Below are positions 1,653-53,850 of a DNA stretch of 64,000 nt, in pieces. The position numbers were made by a program, and so were the translations under genes. Numbering within the stretch: the stretch's first letter is position 1; every line of letters begins with the position of its first letter. This DNA comes from Trypanosoma brucei (taxonomy: Eukaryota), in contig CP000068.1 of the NCBI GenBank assembly GCA_000002445.1, positions 96,001 to 160,000 of the forward strand, given 5' to 3'. The notes beneath the pieces are model-generated. The model saw only the letters and a program-made list of their open reading frames with translations, was not told the origin of the DNA and ran no database searches.

Positions 1653-3116
1653 ATGCCACGAAGATTTGCCTTTGCACGCTCAGCAACCCTGTGCGTTTTC
1701 ATACTGTTGTCTCTCCTCACGGAGGCATTCCCTGAGTATGTAGGTGGGAAGATTGGACAAACACCACCCAGTGATTTCCCTCCAGGAAACGTTAGGTTCG
1801 GCATAGACGATGCGGCAATCGCCCCGGTGGTGCCCCTAATCCTCAAAACACTGAAGAGCTTCATTGGAAGTGTCACAGTCCCTGAGCAAAGGTTACACGG
1901 AGTGAGTTTGGAAACGATGCAAGTGCAAGACATAAACATTGGAAATATGTCGCTACACATGAATAGTACGAACAGGGTTGATGTATCGGTATGGAACATG
2001 ACGGCTAATGTCCCAGAAACCAACTTCAGCTACAATCTGGTGTTTGTGTCGTGCAGTGGAACGGCGAAAACCGATGTTCGCAATGCCAACGTGTCGTTTG
2101 CAATGCGTTTGTCCATCGGAGTGGGTGGCATCCTCGATGTATCGGTGGAGGACATGGCAATCCAACTTTTAGACCTGGTCATTACACCTTCACTGAATGG
2201 TTGGTGCAAGTCTATGGATTTTGTTGTTGGGACCCTTATGAATATTTTTAAGCGAAGCATAGCGGATTATCTGCAGCAGTATGTGCCGGCTATGGTCCAG
2301 CCGATCGTAAGAGCAAAGACGGTGGACATACTTCAGAAACTTCCCATCTCATTTGTGAGCCCTCCAAACATCACGGACGGACGGATGGAACTTACGCTGG
2401 CCATTCACTCTGAAATACCAATAAACCGAACGACAAAGGCGGGGATGTTTACCGAAATTGGGGGCCCGCTCCCCGAGCGGGACATTTCCATGATCTGCTC
2501 CTTTGCAGCTGCAAATAATGTACTGCGCCTTCTTCATTTATTCGGTAACCAGAGTCTTCTGAATATGACAATTCCCATTCCAGGAATATACAATTCCTCT
2601 CTCGCGGAGTCGATATACCCCGATGTGGTCGAACTTTGTCCCAACTGTCCTTTAAAGTTTGTCACTGGATGGACAGCAGCGCCGTGGCTTGAGCCCGTAA
2701 GCGACAAAGCGTTTATCACAAATGCCCAAGGCCCTACCCTTTCCATGGATATGGTAATGGATGACAACACGTCGGTAACTGTGCTTGGTGCTCATCTAAA
2801 CGCGACCGCCAACGTGACTCATCTTTCCACCGACAACAGTGGCCGTATCACCATAAAGTTGGCCTCCGTGAATGCTGCGGTGGCACTATATGCTCCGTTG
2901 GGGCGAAAAATAAATTCAACATCACTCAATACAGATGTTCAGGTCTTATTGAATGAGATCGTGGTGCCGCTTGTTAATGCGCAAACGGGAGGATTCGCAC
3001 TTCCGTTCGATGTAACAGATCTTTTGCTGAAGGTGTCAAATGCCACCATCAGTGTGGGACTTAATGCGATGGAAGCATATCCGCTTATCGGCTCATGCAT
3101 TGATCGTATATGGTGA
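1653..3116 (+). CDS. hypothetical secretory protein of 487 aa. It has a cleavable-looking N-terminal signal peptide (MPRRFAFARSATLCVFILLSLLTEAFP) and at least 15 N-x-S/T sequons. No C-terminal TM or GPI-like hydrophobic tail.
   Basis: Uninterrupted 1464 nt ORF with no competing long ORF. Hydrophobic N-terminus. Dense sequons (NMSL, NSTN, NMTA, NFSY, NVSF, NITD, NRTT, NQSL, NMTI, NSSL, NTSV, NATA, NVTH, NSTS, NATI). Function not recognised; an amphipathic beta-rich lipid-binding (BPI/TULIP-like) fold is only a guess. Confidence 0.5.
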   Translation: MPRRFAFARSATLCVFILLSLLTEAFPEYVGGKIGQTPPSDFPPGNVRFGIDDAAIAPVVPLILKTLKSFIGSVTVPEQRLHGVSLETMQVQDINIGNMSLHMNSTNRVDVSVWNMTANVPETNFSYNLVFVSCSGTAKTDVRNANVSFAMRLSIGVGGILDVSVEDMAIQLLDLVITPSLNGWCKSMDFVVGTLMNIFKRSIADYLQQYVPAMVQPIVRAKTVDILQKLPISFVSPPNITDGRMELTLAIHSEIPINRTTKAGMFTEIGGPLPERDISMICSFAAANNVLRLLHLFGNQSLLNMTIPIPGIYNSSLAESIYPDVVELCPNCPLKFVTGWTAAPWLEPVSDKAFITNAQGPTLSMDMVMDDNTSVTVLGAHLNATANVTHLSTDNSGRITIKLASVNAAVALYAPLGRKINSTSLNTDVQVLLNEIVVPLVNAQTGGFALPFDVTDLLLKVSNATISVGLNAMEAYPLIGSCIDRIW

Positions 3117-6100: not shown

Positions 6101-8474
6101 CACCGACTGGTCATGGAGAGTATTTAAATACTGGGAAAAGTGACCCAATGGGAAATATGCCTCATAATCATCCCTGCTCTTTTTAGCCTTTGGTCATGCA
6201 ATAAACCAACGCCCTCTTACAATTCTATGTTTCCTCAATCACAAAGAGTGGCACACAACCCATCCTGTCATATGTCTCTTTGAAACTGTGCTAATGATAC
6301 GCGGCTGCTTCATTATTTGGGCATCCTTTTCTACAATGGGCAATTCAGATTTCCCTGTTTGATACTTTCTCTCTTTCCACATCATCTGTGCTATTCATAA
6401 TGCTCCAAACCTCATCAAATCGCTTACTCGCTGCTTGCATCATCCTCTGTCGTATCCACGAAAAGGAAATCATTCTCACATTCATTTCCTATTGGAGAGG
6501 TGAAGTCTTTTCCTCATCCCGTGAGGTCACCTTTGTTTTCCCTTGTGAGTGTCAAGGAATGCTGTGCCATCGATAATTTGGAAAGGTATTCCCTGTTATA
6601 AATCTCGTCTTCCCTCACACTGAGGCTGCACATTCCTCCCAATTGTATCTTACATCAAAGACAACAAAAAGAATCGACTTGCTTACGGAAGCTGTCACAC
6701 ATCTGAGATACCACACTGTGCTTCGTTGGAGTTCCATTGTGTAGATGTGCTTTCCCAATTGTATTAATAATATGTTGTCAATGTCGTGCTTCCATTGCAA
6801 CTACTGCCGCTGCGCGTGTCAGAAGTGATCTTCTCTTTATGGGATGTTCTATCATTACGTATGGTCTTTTCAGTATGGTGTCATTTTCCGCTTTGTGGTA
6901 ATGGCTATGAACTTCTTCCCCTTTCCTCCAGAGGTTCCTCCCTATGACTTTTCTCACACTGGTAATATCCTTTTCCCAGTTGATAATTATGCATCGTGCG
7001 ACTCTGTGGGTATCGCTTTTGAATTTCTTTGGAAGGTTCCCTCCAAAAAAATTCCACTATTGAGGCTTGCTTTTCGTATGAGTGTGGTATAACATTTTCC
7101 TTTTTTGGGAGCTGTATAATTTCTTTTCCTCCAATGCTGGCTAATTCAGTCCATTGATATTGCAACTGGATACCACTCTGGACGGAGCTTCCCGCAAGAT
7201 ATTATCGAATCCCCATTACAACATGTGTTGTGTTTGTTTGATGGGTTCATCTGTTACCGCATTGTAAAGACGGACCCAAAAACAACATCCGCGTCGGTGT
7301 GTCCAATAGAAATGATGGAAGAGCTCTCCTGTACTGAAATGGCAATGCTTTTTGCGAGTCGTAAACTTACAACAACAAATAAAAGTGCAGTTACATCCTA
7401 TGCTGGCATGCGGTAACGATTTTCCGCCAATGCATAAAAACTCCACATGACGAATTCCCTATTGCCCACATGTTTTAGTCCTCAGTCACACTCACTTTGC
7501 TATTCTATTGGCTCCTAAAACCAATGCCATGATGTACGGATGGCTTTGTGTGTGGTAACTGCAATAATGATAATAATAACTCCTTTCACCAATGAGTATA
7601 TTTTTTGGTTGTAAAAGTGCTCTTGGTGTCACTCCATTTTTCTTTTTTTTAATCCTCAGCTACTGAGGGGCTGTTGTATTTTTTATTAAAGAGTGATGCA
7701 CCGTTTTATTCCCCATCCCTTTTAGGTGACTTCCTCCTGCACAGTTTTTAATTTTTCATTGTAGAATGTTTCTCAAGGTGTTTCCTTTGTGAAGCTTTGG
7801 TCATGCTATTATTAAAGACCACTCAACTCCCTGCTTTCGGGACCTGCTGTTGCATTTATTCCCCTTTAGTTGCTGCAAATTTGTTTATTTGACAAATTGT
7901 ACTGCAATACTTCACTTGAACATATGTGTAACAACGTGTCTCGTTGCTTTGTAAAAATTCAAAAAGAACACATCAGGTGATATTCTTCTGTTCCTACTTC
8001 GTACATTCACATCTCTTCCCGTCAGTTCGGAAACTCCCACACAAACTCACCACTCTGTGAAGATTTGTAGTTTCCGTTAGTGATGGACGTACTCAAGTGG
8101 ACATGTTTGGCGCCTAAAAACTTACTTTCGAAGTTTACACTTTCTTGCAGACAGCTTCAGTCCGAGAGCAAAATGATAGTTAAACATCAACACAAAACGT
8201 AAATCCAAACTCCCATTGACGAGAGCCTTTAAAATAAATACAAAAATGTTCACCCTGCACGTTACGCCCGAAAGTACCTTATAAAAATAACATTAAGCAA
8301 GCATCAACAATTTGAATGGAGCCACAAGGACAATTAATGGCGTATAATATTTCCACTAAACCTTGCGTGGAAACCGTTAAATTGCATCAAGCACCTAATT
8401 TCAATTCCAGTTCCAAAATCATACACACATGTATCTATGTCTGTTCCTTCGTGTTCGGGCACCTGTGATAGTGT
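3117..8474. terminator. convergent strand-switch region between the + gene at 1653-3116 and the - ISG75 array. Putative Pol II termination zone.
   Basis: Gene orientation converges here. No credible ORFs. Contains the 390 bp dispersed element and GC-rich non-coding islands. Confidence 0.45.
5568..5960 (-). repeat. dispersed element of about 390 bp, copy 1, inside the left convergent strand-switch region
   Basis: Reverse complement of 31920-32310 at about 95% identity, read directly (for example …GGCGACGGTTGTTGAGTGTGTCTGCCGTTATTGTTGTTATC… and …GGGAAGGGGAAAACTCCAGAGACTGTTCAG…). Confidence 0.8.
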
Positions 8475-10043
8475 TTAAATATCACTGTCGAAACCTGCTG
8501 CGGTCTTCGTATTTTTGCTTTTAGCATTAGCCTCCTCTATGTTTATATCATCCTTCACCTCAGCCTTCCTACGGCCCCTAATAACAAAGAACACAAGCAA
8601 CCCAAGCAACAGCAAAAGCAAAGGAATTAAAAATATTAACACTTTCGTTGTCCCAATCCAGCCACTCTTGGCCTCGCTGCCCTCATCATCATGGTCAGCG
8701 TTTACGTCGTCCTCTTCACCACTTTCTTTCGACTCCTCTTTCAATTCCTCAGCCAATTTTTCTACATCCTTCTTCAGTTTCTCTTCAGATTCCTCGGCGC
8801 CCTCCTTGTCCCACCGCGCAACTTCTGCATCTTCGGTGGCTTTGACGCGCTCCTCCTCCGCTTCCTCAAATGCCTTTCTCGAATCTTTCACCTGCTTTTC
8901 TGCAGCCTTTTCAGTTGCCTCAGCTTCCTCAACAGCCTCCAGCAACATCTTTTTCTTTTCTTCACTCACCGGCTGACCCGCCTCCTTTGCCTTCTCAGCC
9001 TTCTCAGCTTCCAAGCGCCTGGCCTCCGCCTGTTCCTCAGCAGCCACTCGTCTCGCCTCAGCCTCCTCCAAAGCCTTTCTCGCTTCCTCAGCAGCCTTCT
9101 CAGCAGCCTGGCGTTTCGCCTCCTCCTCCGCCGCCCGCGCCTCTGCTGCTTTTTTCCATTCCAGATACTGTGCAAGAGACTCCCTTCCAATCTGTTGAAA
9201 TCTCTGAGCATAGTGAGTCACCCCCAAGGAATTGCGGACTAGAGTTTCAAGTTTGAGTATCGCATACCTTGCTGCATCGTAGTCCCACCGCCAACTTTCA
9301 AGCAGCGTGCATGGTTTATCGGAGGAGGACGCACTTCTTGACGAATGGCCGCTGCTGCACTCAACAGCATCCCTTGCATCAGCCTTGGGCTTTGCTCGAT
9401 TCCATGCCTCGACTGCCCCCTCCATGTTGGAGAAGGTCACATCAGTTTTTGCAGCCGGAATAGACTTGTACTCGCAATATATAACGTATGCGCGAGCGTC
9501 ATCATGTCCAAAATTTCGATGATAGTCATGTTTATACGCACTGGGATCGCAGTTTGCGTTAGCCATATGGTCAAACGAATCACGGATTGCTTCCTTGTTT
9601 ATACAGTGCCATTTTAGCAACTCCTTGAGAACTTTGCTCGAGTTCGCTGCAGCCCTCTTCGCCTTCTCCCATGCCTCCTCAACGCTCCTTTTCGTTCGGT
9701 TCGCTACACGTTGGACACCACGCATCTGATCCAACATCTTTTGTCCCAGCGCCGCCCTCATATCATCATGCTCTGACACTTTCTGAAAAATTTCTCTCGC
9801 GACCTTCAAATATTTCCAGGATTGCCTCTCTAGAAAGTCTGCTCTATCAGCAACACCGTCAAGCAACTTTTTCATGGTACACAGTGTCAACACAGCTTCA
9901 CCATCAAGTTTCCGCCCATTTATTGTTACATACTGCTTATATGCGACAGGTAAGTTGCTTGCCTTGGACACATCGAGCGCACATATGCCGCAGAGGAGAA
10001 ATACTGTTGCAGTAGTGCGTAATGTAACAGGCATCGTTGACAT
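8475..10043 (-). CDS. ISG75: invariant surface glycoprotein ISG75 family, copy A (subtype 1), 522 aa type-I membrane protein
   Basis: Signal peptide MSTMPVTLRTTATVFLLCGICALDV; ectodomain with conserved Cys and the motif FSNMEGAVEAWNRAKPK; EEA/KRQAAEKAAEEARK coiled coil; TM LIFLIPLLLLLLGLLVFFVI; short K-rich tail RGRRKAEVKDDINIEEANAKSKNTKTAAGFDSDI. Size matches the ISG75 of roughly 523 aa I recall. Near-identical over its C-terminal half to the five other copies in the window. Confidence 0.85.
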   Translation of the reverse strand: MSTMPVTLRTTATVFLLCGICALDVSKASNLPVAYKQYVTINGRKLDGEAVLTLCTMKKLLDGVADRADFLERQSWKYLKVAREIFQKVSEHDDMRAALGQKMLDQMRGVQRVANRTKRSVEEAWEKAKRAAANSSKVLKELLKWHCINKEAIRDSFDHMANANCDPSAYKHDYHRNFGHDDARAYVIYCEYKSIPAAKTDVTFSNMEGAVEAWNRAKPKADARDAVECSSGHSSRSASSSDKPCTLLESWRWDYDAARYAILKLETLVRNSLGVTHYAQRFQQIGRESLAQYLEWKKAAEARAAEEEAKRQAAEKAAEEARKALEEAEARRVAAEEQAEARRLEAEKAEKAKEAGQPVSEEKKKMLLEAVEEAEATEKAAEKQVKDSRKAFEEAEEERVKATEDAEVARWDKEGAEESEEKLKKDVEKLAEELKEESKESGEEDDVNADHDDEGSEAKSGWIGTTKVLIFLIPLLLLLLGLLVFFVIRGRRKAEVKDDINIEEANAKSKNTKTAAGFDSDI

Positions 10044-10633: not shown

Positions 10634-12205
10634 TTAAATATCACTGTCAAGACCTGCTGCGGTCTTCGTATTTTTGCTTTTAGCATTAGCTTCCCCTATG
10701 TTTATATCATCCTTCACCTCAGCCTTCCTACGGCCCCTAATAACAAAGAACACAAGCAACCCAAGCAACAGCAAAAGCAAAGGAATTAAAAATATTAACA
10801 CTTTCGTTGTCCCAATCCAGCCACTTTTGGCCTCGCTGCCCTCATCATCATGGTCAGCATTTACGTCGTCCCCTTCACCACTTTCTTTCGACTCCTCTTT
10901 CAATTCCTCAGCCAATTTTTCTACATCCTTCTTCAGTTTCTCTTCAGATTCCTCGGCGTCCTTCTTTTCCTCTTTTGCAGCCTCTGCATCTTCGGTGGCT
11001 TTGACGCGCTCCTCCTCCGCTTCCTCAAATGCCTTTCTCGAATCTTTTGCCTGCTTTTCTGCGGCCTTTTCAGTTGCCTCAGCTTCCTCAACAGCCTCCA
11101 GCAACATCTTTTTCTTTTCTTCACTCACCGGCTGACCCGCCTCCTTTGCCTTCTCAGCCTTCTCAGCTTCCAAGCGCCTGGCCTCCGCCTGTTCCTCAGC
11201 GGCCACTCGTCTCGCCTCAGCCTCCTCCAAAGCCTTTCTCGCTTCCTCAGCAGCCTTCTCAGCAGCCTGGCGTTTCGCCTCCTCCTCCGCCGCCCGCGCC
11301 TCTGCTGCTTTCCTTCTCTCCTCATGCTGTGCAAGAGACTCTTTGTAACCCTCTAGCACTTTCTTAGAGTAGTGAAAAACCCTTAAAGCTAGGGTCGCAT
11401 CCTTCTCGACCTTCGATATTAAATGTGCCGTTACTCTGTAGTTCCAAAGCCAGTTCTCCAGCACTGTGCATGGTCGTCCAGCGGGAGCTGCTTGGTGAGC
11501 GGGTGCGCCTGCTCCACATATCATAACACGAGCGGAGTACGGTTTGGGTTTTACCTGGTTCCATATTTCGAGTGCCCTCTCCATGTTGGAGAACGTCGTT
11601 TGTGTAATGACGCTGTCCACTACTTTGTAGTTGCATAAAATGCTGTATTTATGGGGATCAAGCCTCGAATGTTCATAGTAGTAGTCTCGCTTGTACGCGT
11701 TGGGTAAGCAGTTCTCATTTCGACCGTAGCCAGGAAGGACGTCATGACTCGCCGTCCTGTCAACACAATGCCACGTCAGCACTTGGTCGAGAGCTGCACT
11801 TGCATTTGCCGCCGCTGCCTTAGCCCGCTCTCCTGTGCCCCCCATGTACTTGATTATGCCATTGCCCAGCGATTTCATGTACTGTATTTCCCGAAGCTTA
11901 TTTGAAGGGAATGATAACTCCATTCCCTTGTCATCCGATATTTTACGAAAATTCGCATTCGCATTGTTGACATACATATACGCCTGCTGTTCAAACATGT
12001 CAACCCTGGAGTTCACGCCGTCAAGCATCTTCTTCATTTCGCACAGTGTCGTAGCCCCTTGTCCATCAAGTTGCCGAGCACCTGCTGTTACATATTGTTT
12101 TTGTGCAACAGAGAGCTCCTCCGCCCAAGTCACATCGAGCGCACATATGCCGCAGAGGAGAAATACTGTTGCAGTAGTGCGTAATGTAACAGGCATCGTT
12201 GACAT
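10634..12205 (-). CDS. ISG75: ISG75 family, copy B (subtype 2), 523 aa
   Basis: Same signal peptide, coiled coil, TM and tail as copy A. The ectodomain is of a second type (DVTWAEELSVAQKQYV..., ALEIWNQVKPKP, PCTVLENWLWNY). One tandem unit of about 2.16 kb. Confidence 0.85.
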   Translation of the reverse strand: MSTMPVTLRTTATVFLLCGICALDVTWAEELSVAQKQYVTAGARQLDGQGATTLCEMKKMLDGVNSRVDMFEQQAYMYVNNANANFRKISDDKGMELSFPSNKLREIQYMKSLGNGIIKYMGGTGERAKAAAANASAALDQVLTWHCVDRTASHDVLPGYGRNENCLPNAYKRDYYYEHSRLDPHKYSILCNYKVVDSVITQTTFSNMERALEIWNQVKPKPYSARVMICGAGAPAHQAAPAGRPCTVLENWLWNYRVTAHLISKVEKDATLALRVFHYSKKVLEGYKESLAQHEERRKAAEARAAEEEAKRQAAEKAAEEARKALEEAEARRVAAEEQAEARRLEAEKAEKAKEAGQPVSEEKKKMLLEAVEEAEATEKAAEKQAKDSRKAFEEAEEERVKATEDAEAAKEEKKDAEESEEKLKKDVEKLAEELKEESKESGEGDDVNADHDDEGSEAKSGWIGTTKVLIFLIPLLLLLLGLLVFFVIRGRRKAEVKDDINIGEANAKSKNTKTAAGLDSDI

Positions 12206-12801: not shown

Positions 12802-14373
12802 TTAAATATCACTGTCAAGACCTGCTGCGGTCTTCGTATTTTTGCTTTTAGCACCGCCTTCCTCTATGTTTATATCATCCTTCACCTCAGCCTTCCTACG
12901 GCCCCTAATAACAAAGAACACAAGCAACCCAAGCAACAGCAAAAGCAAAGGAATTAAAAATACTAACACTTTCGTTGTCCCAATCCAGCCACTCTTGGCC
13001 TCGCTGCCCTCATCATCATGGTCAGCATTTACGTCGTCCTCTTCACCACTTTCTTTCGACTCCTCTTTCAATTCCTCCGCCAATTTTTCTACATCCTTCT
13101 TCAGTTCCTCTTCGGACCGTCCGATGGTATCCCTGTTCTGCTTTGCAGCCTCTGCATCTTCGGTGGCTTTGACGCGCTCCTCCTCCGCTTCCTCAAATGC
13201 CTTTCTCGAATCTTTTGCCTGCTTTTCTGCAGCCTTTTCAGTTGCCTCAGCTTTCTCAACAGCCTCCAGCAACATCTTTTTCTTTTCTTCACTCACCGGC
13301 TGACCCGCCTCCTTTGCCTTCTCAGCCTTCTCAGCTTCCAAGCGCCTGGCCTCCGCCTGTTCCTCAGCGGCCACTCGTCTCGCCTCAGCCTCCTCAAATG
13401 CCTTTCTCGCTTCCTCAGCAGCCTTCTCAGCAGCCTGGCGTTTCGCCTCCTCCTCCGCCGCCCGCGCCTCTGCTGCTTTCCTTCTCTCCTCATGCTGTGC
13501 AAGAGACTCCTTCGAACTTTCTAGGATTTTCTCAGAGTAGCGGTATACGAATAGAGCAACATCCAAATCCCTGTGGAGCCGCGCTATCAAGTGGGTTGCC
13601 ACTTCGTAGCTCCGCATCCAGTTCTCCAGCACTGTGCATGGTCGCCCTGGTGGAGCTGCTTGGTGAACGGGTGCGCCCGCTCCACATATCATAACACGCA
13701 TATGGTACGGCTTGGGCTTTACCTGGTTCCATATTTCGAGTGCCCTCTCCATGTTGGAGAACGTCGTTTGAGTAGTGGTGCTACTGACCACTTTGTAGTT
13801 GCATAAAATGCTGTATTTATGGGGATCAAGCCTCGAATGTTCATAGTAGTAGTCTCGCTTATACGCGTTAGGTTCACAATTTGCATTTGGAGTAGAACTG
13901 TATGAGGACTCGCGACTCTCCGTCCTGTCAACACAATGCCATTTTAGCACCTCATCGAGAGCTGCGCTTGCATTTGCCGCCGCCTTTTTAGCCCTTCCTT
14001 CGGTTGCATTCATGAGATATGCGATGTCGTCAAGCCTCGTCTTCATGTACTGCATTTGCTGATGTTGATCTCCAGATAGCGATGCTGCCATTACCTTGTC
14101 ATCCGATATTTTACGAAAATTCGCATTCGCATTGTTGACATACATATAGATTTGTTGTTCAAATGTGTCAACCCTGGAGTTCACACCGTCAAGCAACTTT
14201 TTCATGGTACACAGTGTCGCCGCAGCTTCACCATCAAGTTGCCGCCCATGTGCTGTCACATACTGTTTTTGCGCAACAGAGAGCTCCTCCGCCCAAGTCA
14301 CATCGAGCGCACATATGCCGCAGAGGAGAAATACTGTTGCAGTAGTGCATAATGTAACAGGCATCGTTGACAT
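12802..14373 (-). CDS. ISG75: ISG75 family, copy C (subtype 2), 523 aa
   Basis: As copy B but with patchwise differences in the ectodomain (for example ESSYSSTPNANCEPNAYKR versus HDVLPGYGRNENCLPNAYKR). C-terminal 230 aa almost identical to the other copies. Confidence 0.85.
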   Translation of the reverse strand: MSTMPVTLCTTATVFLLCGICALDVTWAEELSVAQKQYVTAHGRQLDGEAAATLCTMKKLLDGVNSRVDTFEQQIYMYVNNANANFRKISDDKVMAASLSGDQHQQMQYMKTRLDDIAYLMNATEGRAKKAAANASAALDEVLKWHCVDRTESRESSYSSTPNANCEPNAYKRDYYYEHSRLDPHKYSILCNYKVVSSTTTQTTFSNMERALEIWNQVKPKPYHMRVMICGAGAPVHQAAPPGRPCTVLENWMRSYEVATHLIARLHRDLDVALFVYRYSEKILESSKESLAQHEERRKAAEARAAEEEAKRQAAEKAAEEARKAFEEAEARRVAAEEQAEARRLEAEKAEKAKEAGQPVSEEKKKMLLEAVEKAEATEKAAEKQAKDSRKAFEEAEEERVKATEDAEAAKQNRDTIGRSEEELKKDVEKLAEELKEESKESGEEDDVNADHDDEGSEAKSGWIGTTKVLVFLIPLLLLLLGLLVFFVIRGRRKAEVKDDINIEEGGAKSKNTKTAAGLDSDI

Positions 14374-14902
14374 CCGTTAAAACTTATCTGTCACCCTCCT
14401 CTGATCACCACTTCCTCAGCTTGTCAGTCTCAACCTCACGTTACCTTGGCCGTAGAAATATGCAATCAACTACAGTCAAATATCCAAGAGAAAATAAGAA
14501 AGGGAAGGGAATCGATAGAAACGACCAAAGAGTAAAAATATGCGCGATTGAGCAAAGGAAATAATATGCGTATCCAATAGCGGATTTGTTGCAGTTCACC
14601 CGAACATGGACAACCTCCACGGCGGTCTTTCATTACACCCTTCATAGTAGCGCAAGGAATGTATGAATACCCTTAACACATGAAATAAGCAATACGTATG
14701 AAAAAAGGCATCAGCACTGGTATCCGCAGCTACCAATGCGGCCCTACCTCAAACCGGTAGTATGTGGGAAAAGGGTTGTAGTTGTAAAGTTTTCTGTAAA
14801 ATTCCTGAAATGTGACAAAAGATTGTGAAAAGACGAAACCGGCAGCAGATGGGGGAAGGGGGAAGGGAGCGGCGTTGTCAAGTGCGACGAAGATTTTTTA
14901 CG

Positions 14903-16561
14903 CTATATTGACTGCTCCTTTTCATGCTTCACGGTGGGAGTAATGCGAGGCAACTCCACAAAGGCGTCAATGGCCGGCGTATCCTTAACCGCTCTTTCCT
15001 CGCTAAAAAGGCCGTCGTTGTGGATGTTGTGATACAACTGCATTTCTCTCCGCCCACGGATGACAAAGAAGAGAAACGACCCGAGCAGCAAGAGTAAGAT
15101 AATGAAACGCACTAATAATCGCGTGATTCTATGGTTGTCACGTTGATGGGCATCAAACACTTCATCACCTTTGTCGTATTTGCTGACTCTCGCGAGGCTC
15201 TGGTACACCTCCTTTTTCAAGTCTGCACACGATCGCAAGGTGTCCTCTGCCTCCCACTGTGCAATAATCGCCGCATCATCAGCCTTCATCATCTCTGTTT
15301 CGGCTCCTTCCAGTGCCTTCTTTGATATTTCTGCCTCTTTCTCGACTTCCCTCAACCTAGACTTTGCATCCTTCTCTGCCTGTATTTTTTTCCTGCTCTC
15401 CCCAGCCATCAGAAGGGCGGCCGCCTCAAGCTTCTCCTTGTTAGCCTTCGCCTCCTCCAGTGCCTTGCTCAATTCTTCGATTTTCGTCGTCACTTCCCGC
15501 AGTTTGCTCTCAGCTTCCCTCACGGCATCGGCATCCCGGCTCCTGGCTTCCGCATCCCTTTTAAGTAATAGCCACCTCTTTTCAACATCTTCGAAGACAT
15601 TTCTCGCCTCATTGACAACTCTACCGGCTGCCTGATGTTTCGACCTTTCCTCTACGGCACGTTCGTTTGCGGCCTTATCCTCCTCATGGACGCCCTCGGC
15701 CGACGTCCCTTCGCCCAGCGAGAGCATTTCTGCATATTTTCGGATTCTGACAGCAACGTGGGTTAAATCGTAGAGCCTCCTCATAGAATACCTTGATGCG
15801 TTGTAATCCTCTAGCCAAGATTCACGCAGCATGCATGGCACCAGCGTTTCAGTGGCTTCGTCCCTCCACTGACCGTTCCAACATTCAGATAGACGCGTTA
15901 GGTTGGGTTTGGGCTTCACAAAATTCCACTTGTCAAGTGCCCTCCCCATCGTTTCAAACGATGCAACAGTATCTCCGCTGCGGATAACCTTGTAGTCACA
16001 CAGAATACTGTTGTTCCTGCGATCATTCACGTGATAATAGTGGAACCGCTCCCTTGAAAACGCGTCAGGATCACAGTTAGCGCCAGTGCTATAATTATAA
16101 GGAGACCCTCTCATCTTTTCAACATCGATGCAGTGCCATTTAAGTATATCCGAAAGAAGTCTGCTAGCATCCAAAGCTGCCTCTTTAGTTCGCTTATAAG
16201 CCGCCTCGATGTGCTTTCTAACGGCCTCAACAAGCTCTCTGGTCATAAGTATCTCCTCCTGTTTTTTCTTCGTGAGAGATGTTCTTATGTTATCGCTAAT
16301 TGTTACATTCGAGAGTACGGTCTTCGCTTTACTCAGCTGCGACAACGCCTCACTCTCAAGGAAAAACGCCCTTTCGGAAACGAGGTCAACAATTGCTTTG
16401 ATAACACATATCGACCGTGCACCCTCACCATCAACTTTTTTTCCTCCGCTGGTGACATACGATTTCCACCATACTAGCTCCTCCGCCCAAGTCACATCGA
16501 GCGCACATATGCCGCAGAGGAGAAATACTGTTGCAGTAATGCGTAATGTAACAGGCATCAT
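14903..16561 (-). CDS. divergent ISG75-related paralog of 552 aa. It has the ISG75 signal peptide and 5' flank but a different ectodomain, coiled coil and cytoplasmic tail.
   Basis: N-terminus MMPVTLRITATVFLLCGICALDVTWAEEL is identical in style to ISG75. It retains ISG-fold hallmarks (ANCDPDAFSRE, FETMGRALDKWNFVKPKP, PCMLRESWLEDY). It has its own charged coiled coil, the TM FIILLLLLGSFLFFVIRGRR, and a longer unrelated tail (EMQLYHNIHNDGLFSEERAVKDTPAIDAFVELPRITPTVKHEKEQSI). The upstream 200 bp is shared with the ISG75 repeat unit. Confidence 0.7.
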   Translation of the reverse strand: MMPVTLRITATVFLLCGICALDVTWAEELVWWKSYVTSGGKKVDGEGARSICVIKAIVDLVSERAFFLESEALSQLSKAKTVLSNVTISDNIRTSLTKKKQEEILMTRELVEAVRKHIEAAYKRTKEAALDASRLLSDILKWHCIDVEKMRGSPYNYSTGANCDPDAFSRERFHYYHVNDRRNNSILCDYKVIRSGDTVASFETMGRALDKWNFVKPKPNLTRLSECWNGQWRDEATETLVPCMLRESWLEDYNASRYSMRRLYDLTHVAVRIRKYAEMLSLGEGTSAEGVHEEDKAANERAVEERSKHQAAGRVVNEARNVFEDVEKRWLLLKRDAEARSRDADAVREAESKLREVTTKIEELSKALEEAKANKEKLEAAALLMAGESRKKIQAEKDAKSRLREVEKEAEISKKALEGAETEMMKADDAAIIAQWEAEDTLRSCADLKKEVYQSLARVSKYDKGDEVFDAHQRDNHRITRLLVRFIILLLLLGSFLFFVIRGRREMQLYHNIHNDGLFSEERAVKDTPAIDAFVELPRITPTVKHEKEQSI

Positions 16562-17215
16562 TGGAAACCATCAAAACTTATCTGTCACCCTCCTCTGATC
16601 ACCACTTCCTCAGCTTGTCAGTCTCAACCCCACGTTACCTTGGCCGTAGAAATATGCAATCAACTACAGTCAAATATCCAAGAGAAAATAAGAAAGGGAA
16701 GGGAATCGATAGAAACGACCAAAGAGTAAAAATATGCGCGATTGAGCAAAGGAAATAATATGCGTATCCAATAGCGGATTTGTTGCAGTTCACCCGAACA
16801 TGGACAACCTCCACGGCAGTCTTTCATTACACCCCTCGTAGTAGCTGCAAACCTCGGCATGCTATGAGCCATCCGGCCACCGCAGCTCCCCTTGGTGATG
16901 GTGTTGAGTGCGTTGAGCTAAAGTGCCTTTACAAATAAAGGCCAAAGTGACCATTTCAGAAGATAGCACAAGGCCTGTCAAATCATAAAAAAGAGCAGGA
17001 GCACGGGAAATGGCTGCTGAGAAAAAAGACAAAGAGGTGTATAGATAAAAGGGGGAAGCAGCTAGATGGTGGAACGCTTTACGACTGTGGCAGCCGCAAG
17101 GGTGCAGCAAAGTCTATGATGTTTGAAAAACGGTTGCGGCACATACCACGAAGCATCAACAACAGTGCTGGGTGGCGAAACACAAAGTGACAGAGTCGCT
17201 CGCGGTTTACTGTAT

Positions 17216-20391: not shown

Positions 20392-20392
<1 letters not shown>

Positions 20393-20447
<55 letters not shown>
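20393..20447. repeat. compound microsatellite (CA)14(TA)13 in the divergent strand-switch region
   Basis: Read directly from the sequence. Confidence 0.95.
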
Positions 20448-25423: not shown

Positions 25424-26992
25424 ATGTCAACGATGCCTGTTACATTACGCACTACTGCAACAGTATTTCTCCTCTGCGGCATATGTGCGCTCGATGTGAC
25501 TCTGGCCGCAGACCTTCCACTTACAAGTAGGCAGTTCGTAACAAACGGACGTATGCTTGACGGGCGGGGTGCTTTGACACTGTGCGAAATGAAGAAGACG
25601 CTTGACGGTGTGAACTCCAGGGTTGACACATTTGAACAACAAATCCTTACGTTCGTCAACAATGCGAATGCGAATTTTCGTAAAATATCGGATGACAAGG
25701 TAATGGCAGCATCGCTCTCCGCGAGCAGGCTACAGGAAATGCAGTACATGAAATCGCTGGGCAATAGCATAATCAAGTACATGGGGGGCACAGGAGAGCG
25801 GGCTAAGGCAGCGGCGGCAAATGCAAGCGCAGCTCTCGACCAAGTGCTGACGTGGCATTGTGTTGACAGGACGGCGAGTCACGAGTCCTCATACAGTTCT
25901 ACTCCAAATGCAAATTGTGAACCTAACGCGTATAAGCGAGACTACTACTATGAACATTCGAGGCTTGATCCCCATAAATACAGCATTTTATGCAACTACA
26001 AAGTGGTCAGTAGTACCACTACTCAAACGACGTTCTCCAACATGGAGAGGGCACTCGAAATATGGAACCAGGTAAAACCCAAACCGTACTCCGCTCGTGT
26101 TATGATATGTGGAGCAGGCGCACCCGCTCACCAAGCAGCTCCCGCTGGACGACCATGCACAGTGCTGGAGAACTGGGTGCGAGACTACAGAGTAACGGCA
26201 CATTTGATAGCAAAGCTCGAGAAGGATGCGACCCTAGCTCTAAGGGTTATGCGCTACTCTGAGAAAGTGCTAGAGGGTGACAAAGAGTCTCTTGCACAGC
26301 ATGAGGAGAGAAGGAAAGCAGCAGAGGCGCGGGCGGCGGAGGAGGAGGCGAAACGCCAGGCTGCTGAGAAGGCTGCTGAGGAAGCGAGAAAGGCTTTGGA
26401 GGAGGCTGAGGCGAGACGAGTGGCCGCTGAGGAACAGGCGGAGGCCAGGCGCTTGGAAGCTGAGAAGGCTGAGAAGGCAAAGGAGGCGGGTCAGCCGGTG
26501 AGTGAAGAAAAGAAAAAGATGTTGCTGGAGGCTGTTGAGGAAGCTGAGGCAACTGAAAAGGCTGCAGAAAAGCAGGCAAAAGATTCGAGAAAGGCATTTG
26601 AGGAAGCGGAGGAGGAGCGCGTCAAAGCCACCGAAGATGCAGAGGCTGCAAAAGAGGAAAAGGAGGACGCCGGACGGTCCGAAGAGGAACTGAAGAAGAG
26701 TCTCGAAAAATTGGCGGAGGAATTGAAAGAGGAGTCGAAAGAAAGTGGTGAAGAGGACGACGTAAATGCTGACCATGATGATGAGGGCAGCGAGGCCAAA
26801 AGTGGCTGGATTGGGACAACGAAAGTGTTAATATTTTTAATTCCTTTGCTTTTGCTGTTGCTTGGGTTGCTTGTGTTCTTTGTTATTAGGGGCCGTAGGA
26901 AGGCTGAGGTGAAGGATGATATAAACATAGAGGAAGGCGGTGCTAAAAGCAAAAATACGAAGACAGCAGCAGGTCTTGACAGTGATATTTAA
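25424..26992 (+). CDS. ISG75: ISG75 family, copy E (subtype 2, mosaic of the B-type and C-type ectodomains), 522 aa
   Basis: Same domain organisation. The ectodomain mixes B-like segments (SLGNSIIKYMGGTGERAKAAAANASAALDQVLTWHCVDRTASH) and C-like segments (ESSYSSTPNANCEPNAYKR, KVMAASLS). Lies on the opposite strand from copies A-D. Confidence 0.85.
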   Translation: MSTMPVTLRTTATVFLLCGICALDVTLAADLPLTSRQFVTNGRMLDGRGALTLCEMKKTLDGVNSRVDTFEQQILTFVNNANANFRKISDDKVMAASLSASRLQEMQYMKSLGNSIIKYMGGTGERAKAAAANASAALDQVLTWHCVDRTASHESSYSSTPNANCEPNAYKRDYYYEHSRLDPHKYSILCNYKVVSSTTTQTTFSNMERALEIWNQVKPKPYSARVMICGAGAPAHQAAPAGRPCTVLENWVRDYRVTAHLIAKLEKDATLALRVMRYSEKVLEGDKESLAQHEERRKAAEARAAEEEAKRQAAEKAAEEARKALEEAEARRVAAEEQAEARRLEAEKAEKAKEAGQPVSEEKKKMLLEAVEEAEATEKAAEKQAKDSRKAFEEAEEERVKATEDAEAAKEEKEDAGRSEEELKKSLEKLAEELKEESKESGEEDDVNADHDDEGSEAKSGWIGTTKVLIFLIPLLLLLLGLLVFFVIRGRRKAEVKDDINIEEGGAKSKNTKTAAGLDSDI

Positions 26993-27582: not shown

Positions 27583-29151
27583 ATGTCAACGATGCCTGTT
27601 ACATTACGCACTACTGCAACAGTATTTCTCCTCTGCGGCATATGTGCGCTCGATGTGTCCAAGGCAAGCAACTTACCTGTCGCATATAAGCAGTATGTAA
27701 CAATAAATGGGCGGAAACTTGACGGGCGGGGTGCTTTGACACTGTGTACCATGAAAAAGTTGCTTGACGGTGTTGCTGATAGAGCAGACTTTCTAGAGAG
27801 GCAATCCTGGAAATATTTGAAGACAGTGCAGGAAATTTTTCAGAAAGTGTCAGAGCATGATGATATGAAGGCGGCCCTTGGCGAAAAGAAGCTGCAGGAA
27901 ATGCATAATGTAATGGCCATATCAGCAACCACTGGAACGTACGTTGGTGAAGCGTGGGGAAAGGCGAAGAGGGCTGCAGCGAACTCGAGCAAAGTTCTCA
28001 AGGAGTTGCTAAAATGGCACTGTATAAACAAGGAAGCAATCCGTGATTCGTTTGACCATATGGCTAACGCAAACTGCGATCCCAGTGCGTATAAACATGA
28101 CTATCATCGAAATTTTGGACATGATGACGCTCGCGCATACGTTATATATTGCGAGTACAAGTCTATTCCGGCTGCAAAAACTGATGTGACCTTCTCCAAC
28201 ATGGAGGGGGCAGTCGAGGCATGGAATCGAGCAAAGCCCAAGGCTGATGCAAGGGATGCTGTTGAGTGCAGCAGCGGCCATTCGTCAAGAAGTGCGTCCT
28301 CCTCCGATAAACCATGCACGCTGCTTGAAAGTTGGCGGTGGGACTACGACTTGGCAGCACATTGCATTGAAAAACTTGAAAGATACACCAGAAATGCATT
28401 ACAAACAGTTCATTACGCTCAAAAATTCCTACATAAAGGAAAGGAGTCTCTTGCACAGTATCTGGAATGGAAAAAAGCAGCAGAGGCGCGGGCGGCGGAG
28501 GAGGAGGCGAAACGCCAGGCTGCTGAGAAGGCTGCTGAGGAAGCGAGAAAGGCTTTGGAGGAGGCTGAGGCGAGACGAGTGGCTGCTGAGGAACAGGCGG
28601 AGGCCAGGCGCTTGGAAGCTGAGAAGGCTGAGAAGGCAAAGGAGGCGGGTCAGCCGGTGAGTGAAGAAAAGAAAAAGATGTTGCTGGAGGCTGTTGAGGA
28701 AGCTGAGGCAACTGAAAAGGCTGCAGAAAAGCAGGTGAAAGATTCGAGAAAGGCATTTGAGGAAGCGGAGGAGGAGCGCGTCAAAGCCACCGAAGATGCA
28801 GAAGTTGCGCGGTGGGACAAGGAGGGCGCCGAGGAATCTGAAGAGGAACTGAAGAAGGATGTAGAAAAATTGGCTGAGGAATTGAAAGAGGAGTCGAAAG
28901 AAAGTGGTGAAGAGGACGACGTAAACGCTGACCATGATGATGAGGGCAGCGAGGCCAAGAGTGGCTGGATTGGGACAACGAAAGTGTTAATATTTTTAAT
29001 TCCTTTGCTTTTGCTGTTGCTTGGGTTGCTTGTGTTCTTTGTTATTAGGGGCCGTAGGAAGGCTGAGGTGAAGGATGATATAAACATAGAGGAGGCTAAT
29101 GCTAAAAGCAAAAATACGAAGACCGCAGCAGGTTTCGACAGTGATATTTAA
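27583..29151 (+). CDS. ISG75: ISG75 family, copy F (subtype 1, closest to copy A), 522 aa
   Basis: N-terminus DVSKASNLPVAYKQYVTINGRKLDG and tail ...EEANAKSKNTKTAAGFDSDI as in copy A. Patchwise differences in the mid-ectodomain. Its 3' flank (29152-29379) is the reverse complement of copy A's 3' flank (8248-8474). Confidence 0.85.
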   Translation: MSTMPVTLRTTATVFLLCGICALDVSKASNLPVAYKQYVTINGRKLDGRGALTLCTMKKLLDGVADRADFLERQSWKYLKTVQEIFQKVSEHDDMKAALGEKKLQEMHNVMAISATTGTYVGEAWGKAKRAAANSSKVLKELLKWHCINKEAIRDSFDHMANANCDPSAYKHDYHRNFGHDDARAYVIYCEYKSIPAAKTDVTFSNMEGAVEAWNRAKPKADARDAVECSSGHSSRSASSSDKPCTLLESWRWDYDLAAHCIEKLERYTRNALQTVHYAQKFLHKGKESLAQYLEWKKAAEARAAEEEAKRQAAEKAAEEARKALEEAEARRVAAEEQAEARRLEAEKAEKAKEAGQPVSEEKKKMLLEAVEEAEATEKAAEKQVKDSRKAFEEAEEERVKATEDAEVARWDKEGAEESEEELKKDVEKLAEELKEESKESGEEDDVNADHDDEGSEAKSGWIGTTKVLIFLIPLLLLLLGLLVFFVIRGRRKAEVKDDINIEEANAKSKNTKTAAGFDSDI

Positions 29152-29379
29152 ACACTATCACAGGTGCCCGAACACGAAGGAACAGACATAGGCATTTGTG
29201 TGTATGATTTTGGAACTGGAATTGAAATTAGGTGCTTGATGCAATTTAACGGTTTCCACGCAAGGTTTAGTGGAAATATTATACGCCATTAATTGTCCTT
29301 GTGGCTCCATTCAAATTGTTGATGCTTGCTTAATGTTATTTTTATAAGGTACTTTCGGGTGTAACGGTGCAGGGTGAAC

Positions 29380-41708: not shown

Positions 41709-42372
41709 CTGGAATAGAAGAGGTTAAGAAACACGCGTTGCAGTGCTCATCCCAATTCGTGTTAAAGCTACATGGGGGGAAAAAATGATATAATAAATGC
41801 AAACATGAAGAATGTCACTAACACTATTCTTGAGAGCGCTGTTGATTTTACTACTGGAAATCTTCTTCAAGAGTGGCAAGTTGATTTGCATTGATGTTTT
41901 TATACCTCCAATAACAACACCTTAAAGGTAGAACCCCTATTGTTTCCCTCCTTCGCGTCGCAGCAGAGTAACAAAAATGGTTTTGTCCATCAGACATATT
42001 ACGGAAAAAAGTGAAAGCAAATACATTCCATTTTGTTTCTTTTCAAACACAAAAAAAAAACAGATGGAAAAAAAAATACCAATACCAATATGATTCCGGA
42101 CACTTTTGCAAGTTATTGAGGTTGTCAATATCCTCATCTCGCAAAAAATTCAGGCATTCCCAAGTGTTAACCTTATGAGCCGAAATCTTCACATTATTTT
42201 TAAATAAAAAAAAATAAAAATAAAAAAAACAGCACGGACAGGGGCCCCCAACACATGTGTCCCCCACCCCCGGGCCCTCCCAGCCCTCTTTCCTTCAAAT
42301 AGAAACGACAACAAACCTCTTCACACATTCGCCTCCTTCGCAATGCTATGGAACACGAGGGGAAAAAAACAG

Positions 42373-46106: not shown

Positions 46107-46142
<36 letters not shown>

Positions 46143-53820: not shown

Positions 53821-53850
53821 TACCATTACACCTTTGTAGGAAATACTAAC

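What the first reader, a model, noticed from the sequence alone, without database searches (positions are those of the whole stretch)
14903..16561. Divergent seventh-type ISG75 relative: ISG75 signal peptide and 5' flank grafted onto a different ectodomain and a different cytoplasmic tail
The innermost gene of the - strand array keeps the exact ISG75 signal peptide (…TATVFLLCGICALDVTWAEEL) and the conserved 200 bp 5' flank. The rest of the protein is only distantly related (ISG-fold motifs retained: FETMGRALDKWNFVKPKP, PCMLRESWLEDY). Its tail (EMQLYHNIHNDGLFSEERAVKDTPAIDAFVELPRITPTVKHEKEQSI) replaces the lysine-rich ISG75 tail. From established work on ISG65/ISG75, tail lysines are ubiquitinated to drive endocytosis and turnover, so this paralog should traffic differently. 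Homogenisation of the 5' end and divergence elsewhere points to boundary-limited gene conversion. Being closest to the putative start region, it may be expressed differently. ISG75 is also implicated in suramin uptake, so a paralog with another ectodomain is of functional interest.
Basis: partly seen in the sequence, partly recalled or inferred. Interest (0 to 1): 0.6.

Follow-up and report, generated by a model that had tools for sequence, protein, structure and literature searches.

The report
Divergent ISG75 paralogue, gene Tb927.5.380
This is an already annotated but unstudied Trypanosoma brucei surface-glycoprotein gene: an old, divergent ISG75-family copy whose start and flanks have been copied from its neighbours, so it is real and intact but is a family member, not a new kind of gene.

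Summary
The ORF at 14903-16561 (-) is real. [quoted passage not shown] By accession order it is Tb927.5.380. T. equiperdum OVI carries an identical copy, so it is not an assembly error.

A 375-nt block (289 nt upstream plus the first 86 nt of CDS) is about 97% identical to the five canonical ISG75 genes. Similarity then falls to 31-38% protein identity with saturated third codon positions. About 95% DNA identity returns 126 nt after the stop.

The "graft" reading is only partly right. The body is ISG75-like throughout: Pfam PF11727, six invariant cysteines, a model matching ISG75 structure 8RD2, and an alignable stalk and TM. It is as far from canonical ISG75 as T. congolense homologues are, so it is probably an old lineage with flanks homogenised by gene conversion.

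The tail is diverged and 17 aa longer, not swapped, and keeps 3 lysines against 5. A g380-specific out-of-frame upstream ATG, together with the gene's absence from two published bloodstream-form ISG75 lists, suggests low expression. Ligand, localisation and stage are untested.

Interest is modest.

The parts
14903..16561 (-). Complete CDS of the divergent ISG75 paralogue. 552 aa, 63.2 kDa. Protein XP_844712.1/AAZ11153.1, inferred locus tag Tb927.5.380.
   Evidence: The accession is exact. The flanking genes run XP_844709-844715, and 844715 is named Tb927.5.410. Pfam PF11727 match.
16562..16850 (-). 289 nt of shared 5' flank. It holds the polypyrimidine tract, candidate AG splice acceptors and the roughly 105-nt 5'UTR common to all ISG75 copies.
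   Evidence: blastn gives 96.5-97% identity to the five other copies. Alignment A2. The splice-acceptor assignment is inferred from the sequence only.
16476..16561 (-). First 86 nt of CDS, encoding the signal peptide (MMPVTLRITATVFLLCGICALDVTWAEEL). This is the homogenised part of the coding region; the 5' homology break falls at 16475/16476.
   Evidence: third-position identity is 1.00 in the first 30 codons; last mismatch-free column.
16431..16571 (-). g380-specific upstream ATG at 16571-16569, 10 nt before the main ATG and out of frame. It opens a 46-codon uORF that overlaps the main start.
   Evidence: None of the other five copies has an ATG in the last 107 nt before the start. The uATG is also present in T. 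equiperdum.
16560..16572 (-). Cluster of 6 substitutions in 13 nt inside the otherwise about 99% identical block. It destroys the canonical start (MSTMP...), creates the new in-frame ATG and creates the uATG.
   Evidence: 11 differences in 371 columns, 6 of them here.
15692..16474 (-). N-terminal ectodomain (residues 30-290). Helical-bundle head with six conserved Cys (C52, C144, C163, C188, C227, C243), the motifs LKWHC, ANCDP, KWNFVKPKP and PCMLRESWLEDY, and 5 N-glycosylation sequons.
15119..15691 (-). Predicted long helical (coiled-coil-like) stalk, residues 291-481. It carries a 24-aa insertion relative to canonical ISG75 and an extra Cys445.
   Evidence: Not homogenised: third-position identity is 0.32.
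15059..15118 (-). Transmembrane segment (LLVRFIILLLLLGSFLFFVI, residues 482-501), followed by the conserved RGRR.
   Evidence: The amino acids are conserved but third positions are not (0.41), so this reflects selection rather than conversion.
14906..15058 (-). Cytoplasmic tail, 51 aa with 3 Lys. It is a diverged homologue of the canonical 34-aa tail plus a 17-aa C-terminal extension.
   Evidence: The T. congolense P0051 tail is canonical-like, so the g380 tail is the derived state. No canonical tail is hidden in the other frames.
14777..14902 (-). 126 nt of gene-specific 3' flank (proximal 3'UTR) with no similarity to any other copy. It is pyrimidine-rich.
14374..14776 (-). Distal intergenic spacer, about 95% identical to the canonical ISG75 spacer. 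It is also the 5' flank of the next gene at 12802-14373.

Best explanation
The locus is Tb927.5.380, an intact but highly divergent member of the ISG75 family of type I transmembrane surface glycoproteins of Trypanosoma brucei.

Its 1.7-kb core (about 14777-16475) covers the mature ectodomain, stalk, TM, tail and proximal 3'UTR. This core belongs to an old lineage that separated from the canonical ISG75 genes about as long ago as the T. congolense homologues did.

The gene sits in the tandem array, so gene conversion with its neighbours has overwritten its 5' flank, 5'UTR and signal-peptide codons, and the distal part of its downstream spacer. The neighbours involved were most recently the adjacent group I copies. 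Conversion tracts stop where homology stops.

The gene therefore shares RNA-processing signals and ER-targeting sequence with canonical ISG75. It encodes a third ectodomain type, a non-homogenised stalk, and a derived, longer tail with fewer lysines.

Inferred, not shown:
- It is made at low level in cultured bloodstream forms, because of its own 3'UTR and an out-of-frame upstream AUG.
- If made, it is a surface or endosomal receptor-like protein whose ligand specificity differs from canonical ISG75.
For: Identity:
- Neighbours match XP_844709-844715 in order.

Family membership:
- PF11727 above cutoff.
- PDB 8RD2 (ISG75) at E=1e-53.
- Six Cys invariant across T. brucei and T. congolense relatives.
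- AF2 model's best PDB match is 8RD2, TM-score 0.77, followed by ISG65 structures.

Mosaic structure:
- 375-nt 5' block at about 97% identity and a distal spacer at about 95% identity flank a core with no detectable DNA similarity.
- Third-position identity is 1.0, then 0.2-0.45.
- Codon-position identities are ordered 2>1>3 (0.6/0.5/0.35). This shows protein-level constraint over saturated synonymous sites.

Age:
- The best non-self hit in an exhaustive search is T. congolense CCD16619, at 37% and 176.7 bits. Canonical T. brucei ISG75 scores 32% and 148.8 bits.
- NJ trees put canonical groups I+II in a clade without g380 (97% unrooted, 75% rooted).
- g380 falls with T. congolense lineages (54-55%). 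An all-T. brucei clade has <11% support.

Not an artefact:
- A T. equiperdum OVI contig has an identical CDS, both CDS-proximal junctions and the uATG.

Low expression (indirect):
- The uATG is unique to this copy.
- A bloodstream-upregulated microarray list names .350.360.370.390 and .400 but not .380 (PMC2771046).
- A SILAC proteomics table names the same five (PMC4619645).
- There is no g380-type row in the Lister 427 whole-cell proteomics (PMC9896412 Table S1).
Against: - The deep-lineage inference rests on distance trees of 257-263 saturated columns. Support for placing g380 with T. congolense sequences is only about 55%. Accelerated evolution of a T. brucei-specific duplicate cannot be fully excluded by these data.
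- No orthologue appears among the annotated proteins of T. b. gambiense DAL972 or T. b. equiperdum IVM-t1 returned. The gene may be dispensable or strain-variable. Alternatively, those collapsed arrays may simply miss it.
- The expression evidence is absence from lists, not a measurement.
- The uATG effect and the splice-site position are inferred from sequence.
- Function, localisation and ligand are untested.
Confidence: 0.75

Rival explanations
1. Expressionally dead relic. The ORF is still open, but the gene is no longer used in any life-cycle stage: it is translationally blocked by the uAUG, poorly processed, and being lost in some strains.
For: - An out-of-frame uATG lies 10 nt upstream of the start, and the canonical start codon is destroyed.
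- The gene is absent from two published lists of bloodstream-form ISG75 paralogues and from the 427 proteomics sheet.
- No orthologue appears among annotated DAL972 proteins.
- The TM hydrophobic run is interrupted by Arg485.
Against: - The 552-codon ORF is intact despite saturation-level divergence.
- All six structural Cys and the core motifs are kept.
- The codon-position pattern shows long-term purifying selection.
- A replacement in-frame ATG was created next to the destroyed one.
- The sequence is identical in T. equiperdum.
- The expression data consulted cover only cultured bloodstream and procyclic forms.
Confidence: 0.2
2. Recent T. brucei-specific duplicate of canonical ISG75. Its ectodomain, stalk and tail diverged rapidly under diversifying selection, and the 5' end simply has not diverged.
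For: - ISG75 ectodomain codons are reported to be under positive selection (PMC2386149).
- Support for g380 grouping with T. congolense lineages is only about 55%.
Against: - Third codon positions are at random-level identity across the whole core, including the TM. Positive selection on amino acids does not produce this.
- The non-coding 126-nt 3' flank is also unrelated.
- The transition from 97% identity to no similarity is abrupt at both ends.
Confidence: 0.07
3. One reading: a chimera in which the ISG75 promoter-proximal region and signal peptide were grafted onto a different (non-ISG75) ectodomain and a foreign cytoplasmic tail.
For: - There are sharp homology boundaries at 16475/16476 and 14776/14777.
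- The tail has no detectable relative in a database search. That search did not even recover the protein itself, so it is uninformative.
Against: - The core is homologous to ISG75 from residue 30 to the RGRR after the TM.
- The tail aligns with the canonical tail for about 32 residues.
- The same 5' boundary, within 18 nt, separates the canonical groups from each other.
Confidence: 0.03
4. Assembly error or frameshift that hides a canonical ISG75 C-terminus.
For: The locus is a tandem array of near-identical repeats, which is prone to mis-assembly.
Against: - An independent T. equiperdum OVI contig is nucleotide-identical over the CDS, the 5' junction and the 3' junction.
- The other two reading frames of the 3' end hold no canonical tail.
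- The DNA of the 3' half has no similarity to canonical copies.
Confidence: 0.01

Closest known systems
Canonical T. brucei ISG75 (Tb927.5.350/.360/.370/.390/.400; crystal structure PDB 8RD2). Reported as the suramin-uptake receptor and an IgG Fc receptor.
   Same: - Same tandem array.
- Same 5'UTR and signal peptide.
- Same Pfam family (PF11727).
- Same six-Cys framework.
- Same predicted head, long helical stalk, single TM, RGRR and short-tail architecture.
   Different: - 31-33% ectodomain identity.
- The stalk is not homogenised and has a 24-aa insertion.
- The conserved N134 sequon is lost and five others are gained.
- The tail is 17 aa longer, has 3 rather than 5 Lys, and lacks the conserved ...LDS(D/E)I end.
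- It has its own proximal 3'UTR and an upstream out-of-frame ATG.
- Ligand binding is untested.
ISG75 groups I and II of Trypanozoon. The two-group description is recalled from Tran et al. 2006 and was not checked here. Its sequences (Q1WK.., ABB22...) appear.
   Same: Groups I and II also differ by an old ectodomain cassette (38-43% identity, third positions 0.42). That cassette lies between the same homogenised 5' block and a homogenised 3' part. g380 follows the same mosaic logic.
   Different: - In groups I/II the whole C-terminal half and tail are 91-100% identical. In g380 they are 37-38% identical.
- g380 falls outside the I+II clade.
T. congolense IL3000 ISG75-like proteins (CCD16619, CCD13861, CCD12694, CCD11780)
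   Same: - Same family and Cys framework.
- CCD16619 is the best non-self match to the g380 ectodomain, at 37% and 176.7 bits.
   Different: - Different species and a different signal peptide.
- CCD13861 has a canonical-type tail, unlike g380.
- CCD16619 is truncated at 304 aa, so its C-terminus cannot be compared.
ISG65 / ISG64-like genes (Tb927.5.410-.430 in this window; PDB 7PI6, 8OVB)
   Same: Same Pfam clan-level family (PF11727) and a helical-bundle head. These are weaker structural matches.
   Different: Only about 23% identity. They are much shorter (373-393 aa) and have no long stalk.

Membership tests
ISG65-75 superfamily (Pfam PF11727) | Significant match to the family HMM above the curated gathering score | tested here: met
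   52.9 bits against a cutoff of 25.1, E=4.2e-14, residues 97-268. The score is similar to canonical ISG75 copies (57-60 bits).
ISG75 family | Sequence homology to an experimentally solved ISG75 over the ectodomain and stalk | tested here: met
   phmmer against PDB 8RD2_A gives E=1e-53, query residues 30-429.
ISG75 family | Conserved ectodomain cysteine framework and core motifs (WHC, NC(D/E)P, WN..KP, PC..E.W..Y) | tested here: met
   C52, C144, C163, C188, C227, C243, H143, N162, W212, K216, P217, E247, W249 and Y253 are invariant in 12 T. brucei and T. congolense sequences.
ISG75 family | Three-dimensional fold: helical-bundle head plus long helical stalk | tested here: met
   AF2 model (pLDDT 68, helices 80-95) has 8RD2 as its best PDB match, E=2.4e-16, TM-score 0.77 normalised to the target. 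Caveats: the MSA was shallow and the head loops at 143-243 have low confidence.
ISG75 family | Type I topology: N-terminal signal peptide, single TM, short cytoplasmic tail after RGRR | tested here: met
   Read from the sequence and alignments. The signal peptide is identical to group I copies. The TM has an internal Arg485.
ISG75 family | Conserved lysine-rich cytoplasmic tail ending ...LDS(D/E)I. It is shared by T. brucei and T. congolense members and is the substrate of ubiquitylation-dependent turnover. | tested here: not met
   The g380 tail has 3 Lys rather than 5, is 51 aa rather than 34 aa, and ends ...KEQSI. T. congolense P0051 keeps the canonical form. Ubiquitylation itself cannot be tested with these tools.
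ISG75 family | Membership of the canonical T. brucei clade (groups I and II) in a phylogeny | tested here: not met
   Canonical I+II form a clade that excludes g380 (97% unrooted, 75% rooted). g380 groups weakly with T. congolense lineages.
ISG75 family | Abundant bloodstream-stage expression and surface or endosomal localisation | not testable with these tools
   Only indirect evidence is available. The gene is not among the ISG75 paralogues listed in PMC2771046, PMC4619645 or PMC9896412 Table S1.
ISG75 family | Ligand binding (IgG Fc; suramin) | not testable with these tools
   No binding data exist for this paralogue. The paper describing Fc binding (cited in PMC13186567) is not held.
Tandem-array gene undergoing concerted evolution (segmental gene conversion) | Abrupt switch between near-identity and saturation-level divergence within one gene, at boundaries shared with other array members | tested here: met
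   The 5' boundaries of the three ectodomain types lie within 18 nt of one another.

The most novel reading that the evidence does not exclude
Tb927.5.380 is a functional third class of ISG75 receptor that predates the T. brucei/T. congolense split. Conversion of its flanks keeps it in the array. It would have a ligand specificity different from the IgG Fc/suramin-binding canonical copies. Its regulation would also differ: uAUG-throttled translation, its own 3'UTR, and a longer tail with fewer lysines that changes ubiquitin-dependent turnover. It might be used in a stage or niche not sampled by culture-form datasets.
Probability: 0.2. Interest if true: 0.55.

Novelty: already known. Interest (0 to 1): 0.3.

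Why it matters
ISG75 is a major invariant surface protein of bloodstream trypanosomes. It is the main route of suramin uptake and is reported to be an IgG Fc receptor.

The papers consulted treat the six genes of this locus as near-identical copies. One of them maps Lister 427 gene IDs onto Tb927.5.350-.400 by order alone. One of the six is in fact only about 35% identical, with a different tail and 3'UTR.

This has practical consequences:
- RNAi fragments, antibodies and peptide-based quantification designed on canonical ISG75 will miss it.
- The published pan-ISG75 CRISPR guide will cut it.

If the protein is made, it is a natural experiment on how ectodomain and tail variation change ligand binding and ubiquitin-dependent sorting. 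If it is not made, it is a clean example of how conversion boundaries preserve old cassettes within a homogenising array.

Either way, this is incremental knowledge about a known family.

Tried and rejected
1. Equating the gene with the 'more variant copy' Tb427_050007700 of Makarov et al. 2023. Rejected: that protein is 515 aa and 58.5 kDa, with 29.5% coverage mostly from peptides shared with canonical ISG75. g380 is 552 aa and 63.2 kDa and shares essentially no mature tryptic peptides. The paper's Tb927 equivalents are assigned by order only.

2. Database search with the C-terminal 110 aa to find a donor for the tail. It returned nothing, not even the protein itself, so it is uninformative.

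3. Hidden canonical tail in another frame, or a frameshift. None found.

4. A seventh ISG75 copy or fragment in the window. tblastn finds only six, plus weak hits to the ISG65-like genes at 35-38 kb.

5. Weak PDB hits to complement factor H domains (E about 0.2, residues 226-271). Treated as chance.

6. Tsetse-stage expression in the supplements of Savage et al. 2016. There is no entry for Tb927.5.380. One file was cut when stored, so this is not evidence of absence.

7. The paper reporting ISG75 as an Fc receptor could not be read. Conservation of the binding site could therefore not be assessed.

8. The first bootstrap script timed out. It was replaced by a custom NJ script.

9. The genome, metagenome, phage, plasmid and E. 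coli collections were not used, because they hold no trypanosome sequence.
Full report
**What the window is.** All long ORFs around the finding match annotated proteins of Trypanosoma brucei brucei TREU927 chromosome 5 exactly (1.608 Mb contig).
- 1653-3116 (+) is an ESAG5-related protein (XP_844708).
- 8475-10043, 10634-12205 and 12802-14373 (-) are XP_844709, XP_844710 and XP_844711.
- 14903-16561 (-) is XP_844712.
- 25424-26992 and 27583-29151 (+) are XP_844713 and XP_844714.
- 33279-34460 (-) is XP_844715, named Tb927.5.410.

[quoted passage not shown] The locus tag is inferred from accession order. The protein accession is an exact match. The gene is therefore already in the public annotation and carries the Pfam ISG65-75 domain.

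**Checking the observation.** The ORF is 552 codons and intact.

At the DNA level there are three zones.
- A 375-nt block (16476-16850: 289 nt upstream plus the first 86 nt of CDS) is 96.5-97% identical to the other five copies.
- From 16475 down to 14777 there is no detectable nucleotide similarity.
- From 14776 downward, 126 nt after the stop, the sequence is about 95% identical to the canonical intergenic spacer.

In a codon alignment, third-position identity is 1.00 in the first 30 codons. It is then 0.2-0.45 everywhere else, including the TM segment, where amino acids are conserved.

- The shared flank is 289 nt, not 200.
- The window holds six ISG75-family genes, not seven.
- The tail has three lysines, not none.

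**Not an artefact.** A 2.1-kb contig of T. equiperdum OVI (CZPT02001921) carries the same gene. Its CDS is nucleotide-identical, and so are the 5' junction, the unique 3' flank and the 3' junction. There is a single difference in the 5'UTR. The other reading frames of the 3' end contain no canonical tail.

**What the protein is.** It belongs to the ISG75 family along its whole length.
- PF11727 scores 52.9 bits against a cutoff of 25.1, comparable to canonical copies.
- It matches the solved ISG75 structure 8RD2 at E=1e-53 over residues 30-429.
- Six ectodomain cysteines and the WHC, NCDP, WN..KP and PC..E.W..Y motifs are invariant across twelve T. brucei and T. congolense sequences.
- An AlphaFold2 model has mean pLDDT 68. 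The helices are confident and the head loops at 143-243 are not. It finds 8RD2 as best PDB match (E=2.4e-16, TM-score 0.77 relative to the target), followed by ISG65 structures.

So 'a different ectodomain' is wrong in the sense of a foreign domain. It is a third ISG75 ectodomain type.

**Context within the family.** The five canonical genes fall into two groups.
- Group I-like: 10634-12205, 12802-14373 and 25424-26992.
- Group II-like: 8475-10043 and 27583-29151.

Their ectodomains are only 38-43% identical to each other, with third positions at 0.42. Their C-terminal halves are 91-100% identical. The family as a whole therefore consists of old ectodomain cassettes inside a homogenised framework.

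The 5' boundaries of the three types lie within 18 nt of each other, at the end of the signal peptide. g380 is special because homogenisation stopped at the signal peptide. Its stalk, TM, tail and proximal 3'UTR were never overwritten (C-terminal half 37-38% identity, third positions 0.32).

The codon-position identities (position 2 about 0.6, position 1 about 0.5, position 3 about 0.35) and the open 552-codon frame show long-term purifying selection on the protein.

**Age of the lineage.** An exhaustive phmmer search of 1.84 billion representatives with the mature ectodomain found only six proteins.
- The best non-self hit is T. congolense IL3000 CCD16619, at 37% identity and 176.7 bits.
- This is ahead of canonical T. 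brucei ISG75, at 32% and 148.8 bits.
- The rest are also T. congolense proteins.

The neighbour-joining trees with 500 bootstraps gave the following.
- Canonical groups I+II form a clade excluding g380 (97% unrooted; 75% when rooted with the ISG65-like genes of the window).
- g380 groups with T. congolense lineages at 54-55%.
- A clade of all six T. brucei genes has under 11% support.

I read this as moderate evidence that the g380 core predates, or is about as old as, the T. brucei/T. congolense split. The alignment is short and saturated, so this step is inferred, not proven.

**The tail.** The T. congolense protein CCD13861 ends RGRRAAENKDDIDIG...KNIETLDSEI, which is clearly the canonical ISG75 form. 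The canonical tail is therefore ancestral and the g380 tail is derived.

The g380 tail aligns with the canonical tail for about 32 residues (RGRR..NI....VKD....IDAF against LDSDI). It then continues for 17 more residues. It keeps three lysines against five.

Table 1 of PMC4619645 lists 3-4 cytoplasmic lysines for ISG65 and 4-5 for ISG75. ISG abundance is reported to be controlled by ubiquitylation (PMC9896412 introduction). Three lysines therefore do not by themselves predict escape from that pathway. The claim that the paralogue 'should traffic differently' is possible but unsupported.

**Expression clues, all indirect.**
- Within the shared 5' block, g380 differs from the consensus at 11 of 371 positions. 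Six of these fall in 13 nt around the start codon (16560-16572).
- These changes destroy the canonical ATG (MSTMP...). They create a new in-frame ATG three codons downstream (MMP...).
- They also create an out-of-frame ATG 10 nt upstream, which opens a 46-codon overlapping uORF.
- No other copy has an ATG in its last 107 nt before the start. The uATG is conserved in T. equiperdum.
- Every AG that could serve as splice acceptor after the polypyrimidine tract lies upstream of this uATG, so it should be in the mRNA. From general knowledge of scanning-dependent initiation, this should lower translation of the main ORF.
- A microarray list of bloodstream-upregulated genes names Tb927.5.350.360.370.390 and .400 but not .380 (PMC2771046).
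- A SILAC table lists the same five (PMC4619645).
- The ISG sheet of a Lister 427 whole-cell proteome has no g380-type entry (PMC9896412 Table S1).

The 'more variant, barely detected' copy in that last paper (Tb427_050007700) is 515 aa and 58.5 kDa, with 29.5% coverage mostly from shared peptides. It is not the g380 type.

**Position in the transcription unit.** The four minus-strand and two plus-strand genes diverge from an 8.8-kb region without ORFs of 150 aa or more. A ChIP study lists all six genes as lying within 5 kb of Bdf3 sites (PMC9241505). Together these fit a divergent strand-switch region with transcription start sites. g380 is the first gene on its side, and 25424-26992 is the first on the other. 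Whether position affects its expression could not be tested.

**Mechanism proposed.**
- Shown: mosaic structure, family membership, conservation of structural residues, presence in two isolates.
- Inferred: repeated gene conversion with adjacent copies homogenises flanks and signal peptide. The latest tract shared with the two adjacent group I copies extends 18 nt further than the block shared with group II. Tracts terminate where homology is lost, which preserves the old core.
- Inferred: low translation from the uAUG and a distinct mRNA fate from the unique 126-nt proximal 3'UTR.
- Speculative: a ligand specificity and turnover different from canonical ISG75.

**Novelty and verdict.** The gene is annotated and belongs to a well-known family, and the mosaic pattern is what concerted evolution in trypanosome tandem arrays produces. 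What the held literature does not discuss is that this sixth 'ISG75' is about 35% identical, has a derived tail and an upstream AUG, and is probably an old lineage.

That is useful for anyone doing RNAi, antibody, proteomic or CRISPR work on the locus. The published pan-ISG75 guide plus PAM matches all six genes. It is not a surprise to a specialist.

I score interest at 0.3 and novelty as already known. There is a 0.2 chance that it turns out to be a functionally distinct third receptor class.

Noticed in passing
window 8475-10043 (-) and 27583-29151 (+), plus their 3' flanks (about 8245-8474 and 29152-29380): The two group II-type ISG75 copies sit at the outer ends of the two divergent arms. 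They are 92% identical overall and 100% identical in the C-terminal half. They share a distinct 3' flank for about 230 nt that differs from the internal spacer. The locus therefore looks like an inverted duplication around the strand-switch region.
   Followed up: partly
window 16560-16572 (-): Six substitutions are packed into 13 nt around the g380 start codon, inside an otherwise about 99% identical block. Together they remove the canonical ATG, create a new in-frame ATG and create an out-of-frame upstream ATG. This looks like one multi-nucleotide event or a micro-conversion patch rather than independent point mutations.
   Followed up: partly
window 14903-16561 (-), protein residues 85, 156, 183, 220, 254, 445 and 485: g380 has five N-glycosylation sequons against one or two in canonical copies, and it lacks the one sequon conserved in all five (N133/134). 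It also has an extra Cys445 in the stalk and an Arg (R485) inside the TM hydrophobic run, which leaves only 16 uninterrupted hydrophobic residues.
   Followed up: no
window 14777-14902 (-): The gene-specific 3' flank starts with a strong polypyrimidine run (CTCCCTTCCCCCTTCCCCCATCTGCTGCCGGTTTCGTCTTTTCAC...) followed by AG dinucleotides. This could act as an extra trans-splice or polyadenylation-guiding element immediately after the stop codon.
   Followed up: no
window 9988-10010, 12150-12172, 14318-14340, 16512-16534 (-); 25457-25479, 27616-27638 (+): The pan-ISG75 CRISPR guide plus PAM published in PMC9896412 (GCAACAGTATTTCTCCTCTG+CGG) matches all six genes, including the divergent one, because it lies in the homogenised signal-peptide block.
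   Followed up: yes
PMC9896412 main text and Table S1, against window genes: That paper equates Lister 427 genes Tb427_050007700-8200 with Tb927.5.350-.400 by order. The arrangement differs, though: 5+1 genes per strand in 427 against 4+2 here. No 427 entry has the length or mass of the divergent gene. The 427 array may lack it, or it may be annotated elsewhere.
   Followed up: partly
window 33279-34460, 35026-36147, 37164-38297 (-): Three shorter ISG65-like genes (Tb927.5.410 and two neighbours, 373-393 aa) give very strong PF11727 matches (E 1e-88 to 1e-93). They lie downstream of a convergent strand switch and are only about 23% identical to the ISG75 genes.
   Followed up: partly
window 20392-20447: An adjacent (CA)14 and (AT)14 dinucleotide microsatellite lies in the middle of the ORF-poor strand-switch region.
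   Followed up: no
window 42372-42444 (-) and 46000-54000: There is a tRNA-Arg(ACG) gene. There is also an AT-rich stretch (GC 0.32-0.40 against about 0.46 elsewhere) further along the minus-strand unit.
   Followed up: no
T. b. gambiense DAL972 and T. b. equiperdum IVM-t1 proteomes (listings): No orthologue of the divergent protein was returned from these annotated proteomes, although many canonical ISG75 copies from them were. T. equiperdum OVI has an identical copy. This may reflect strain-variable presence or collapsed arrays in the assemblies.
   Followed up: partly
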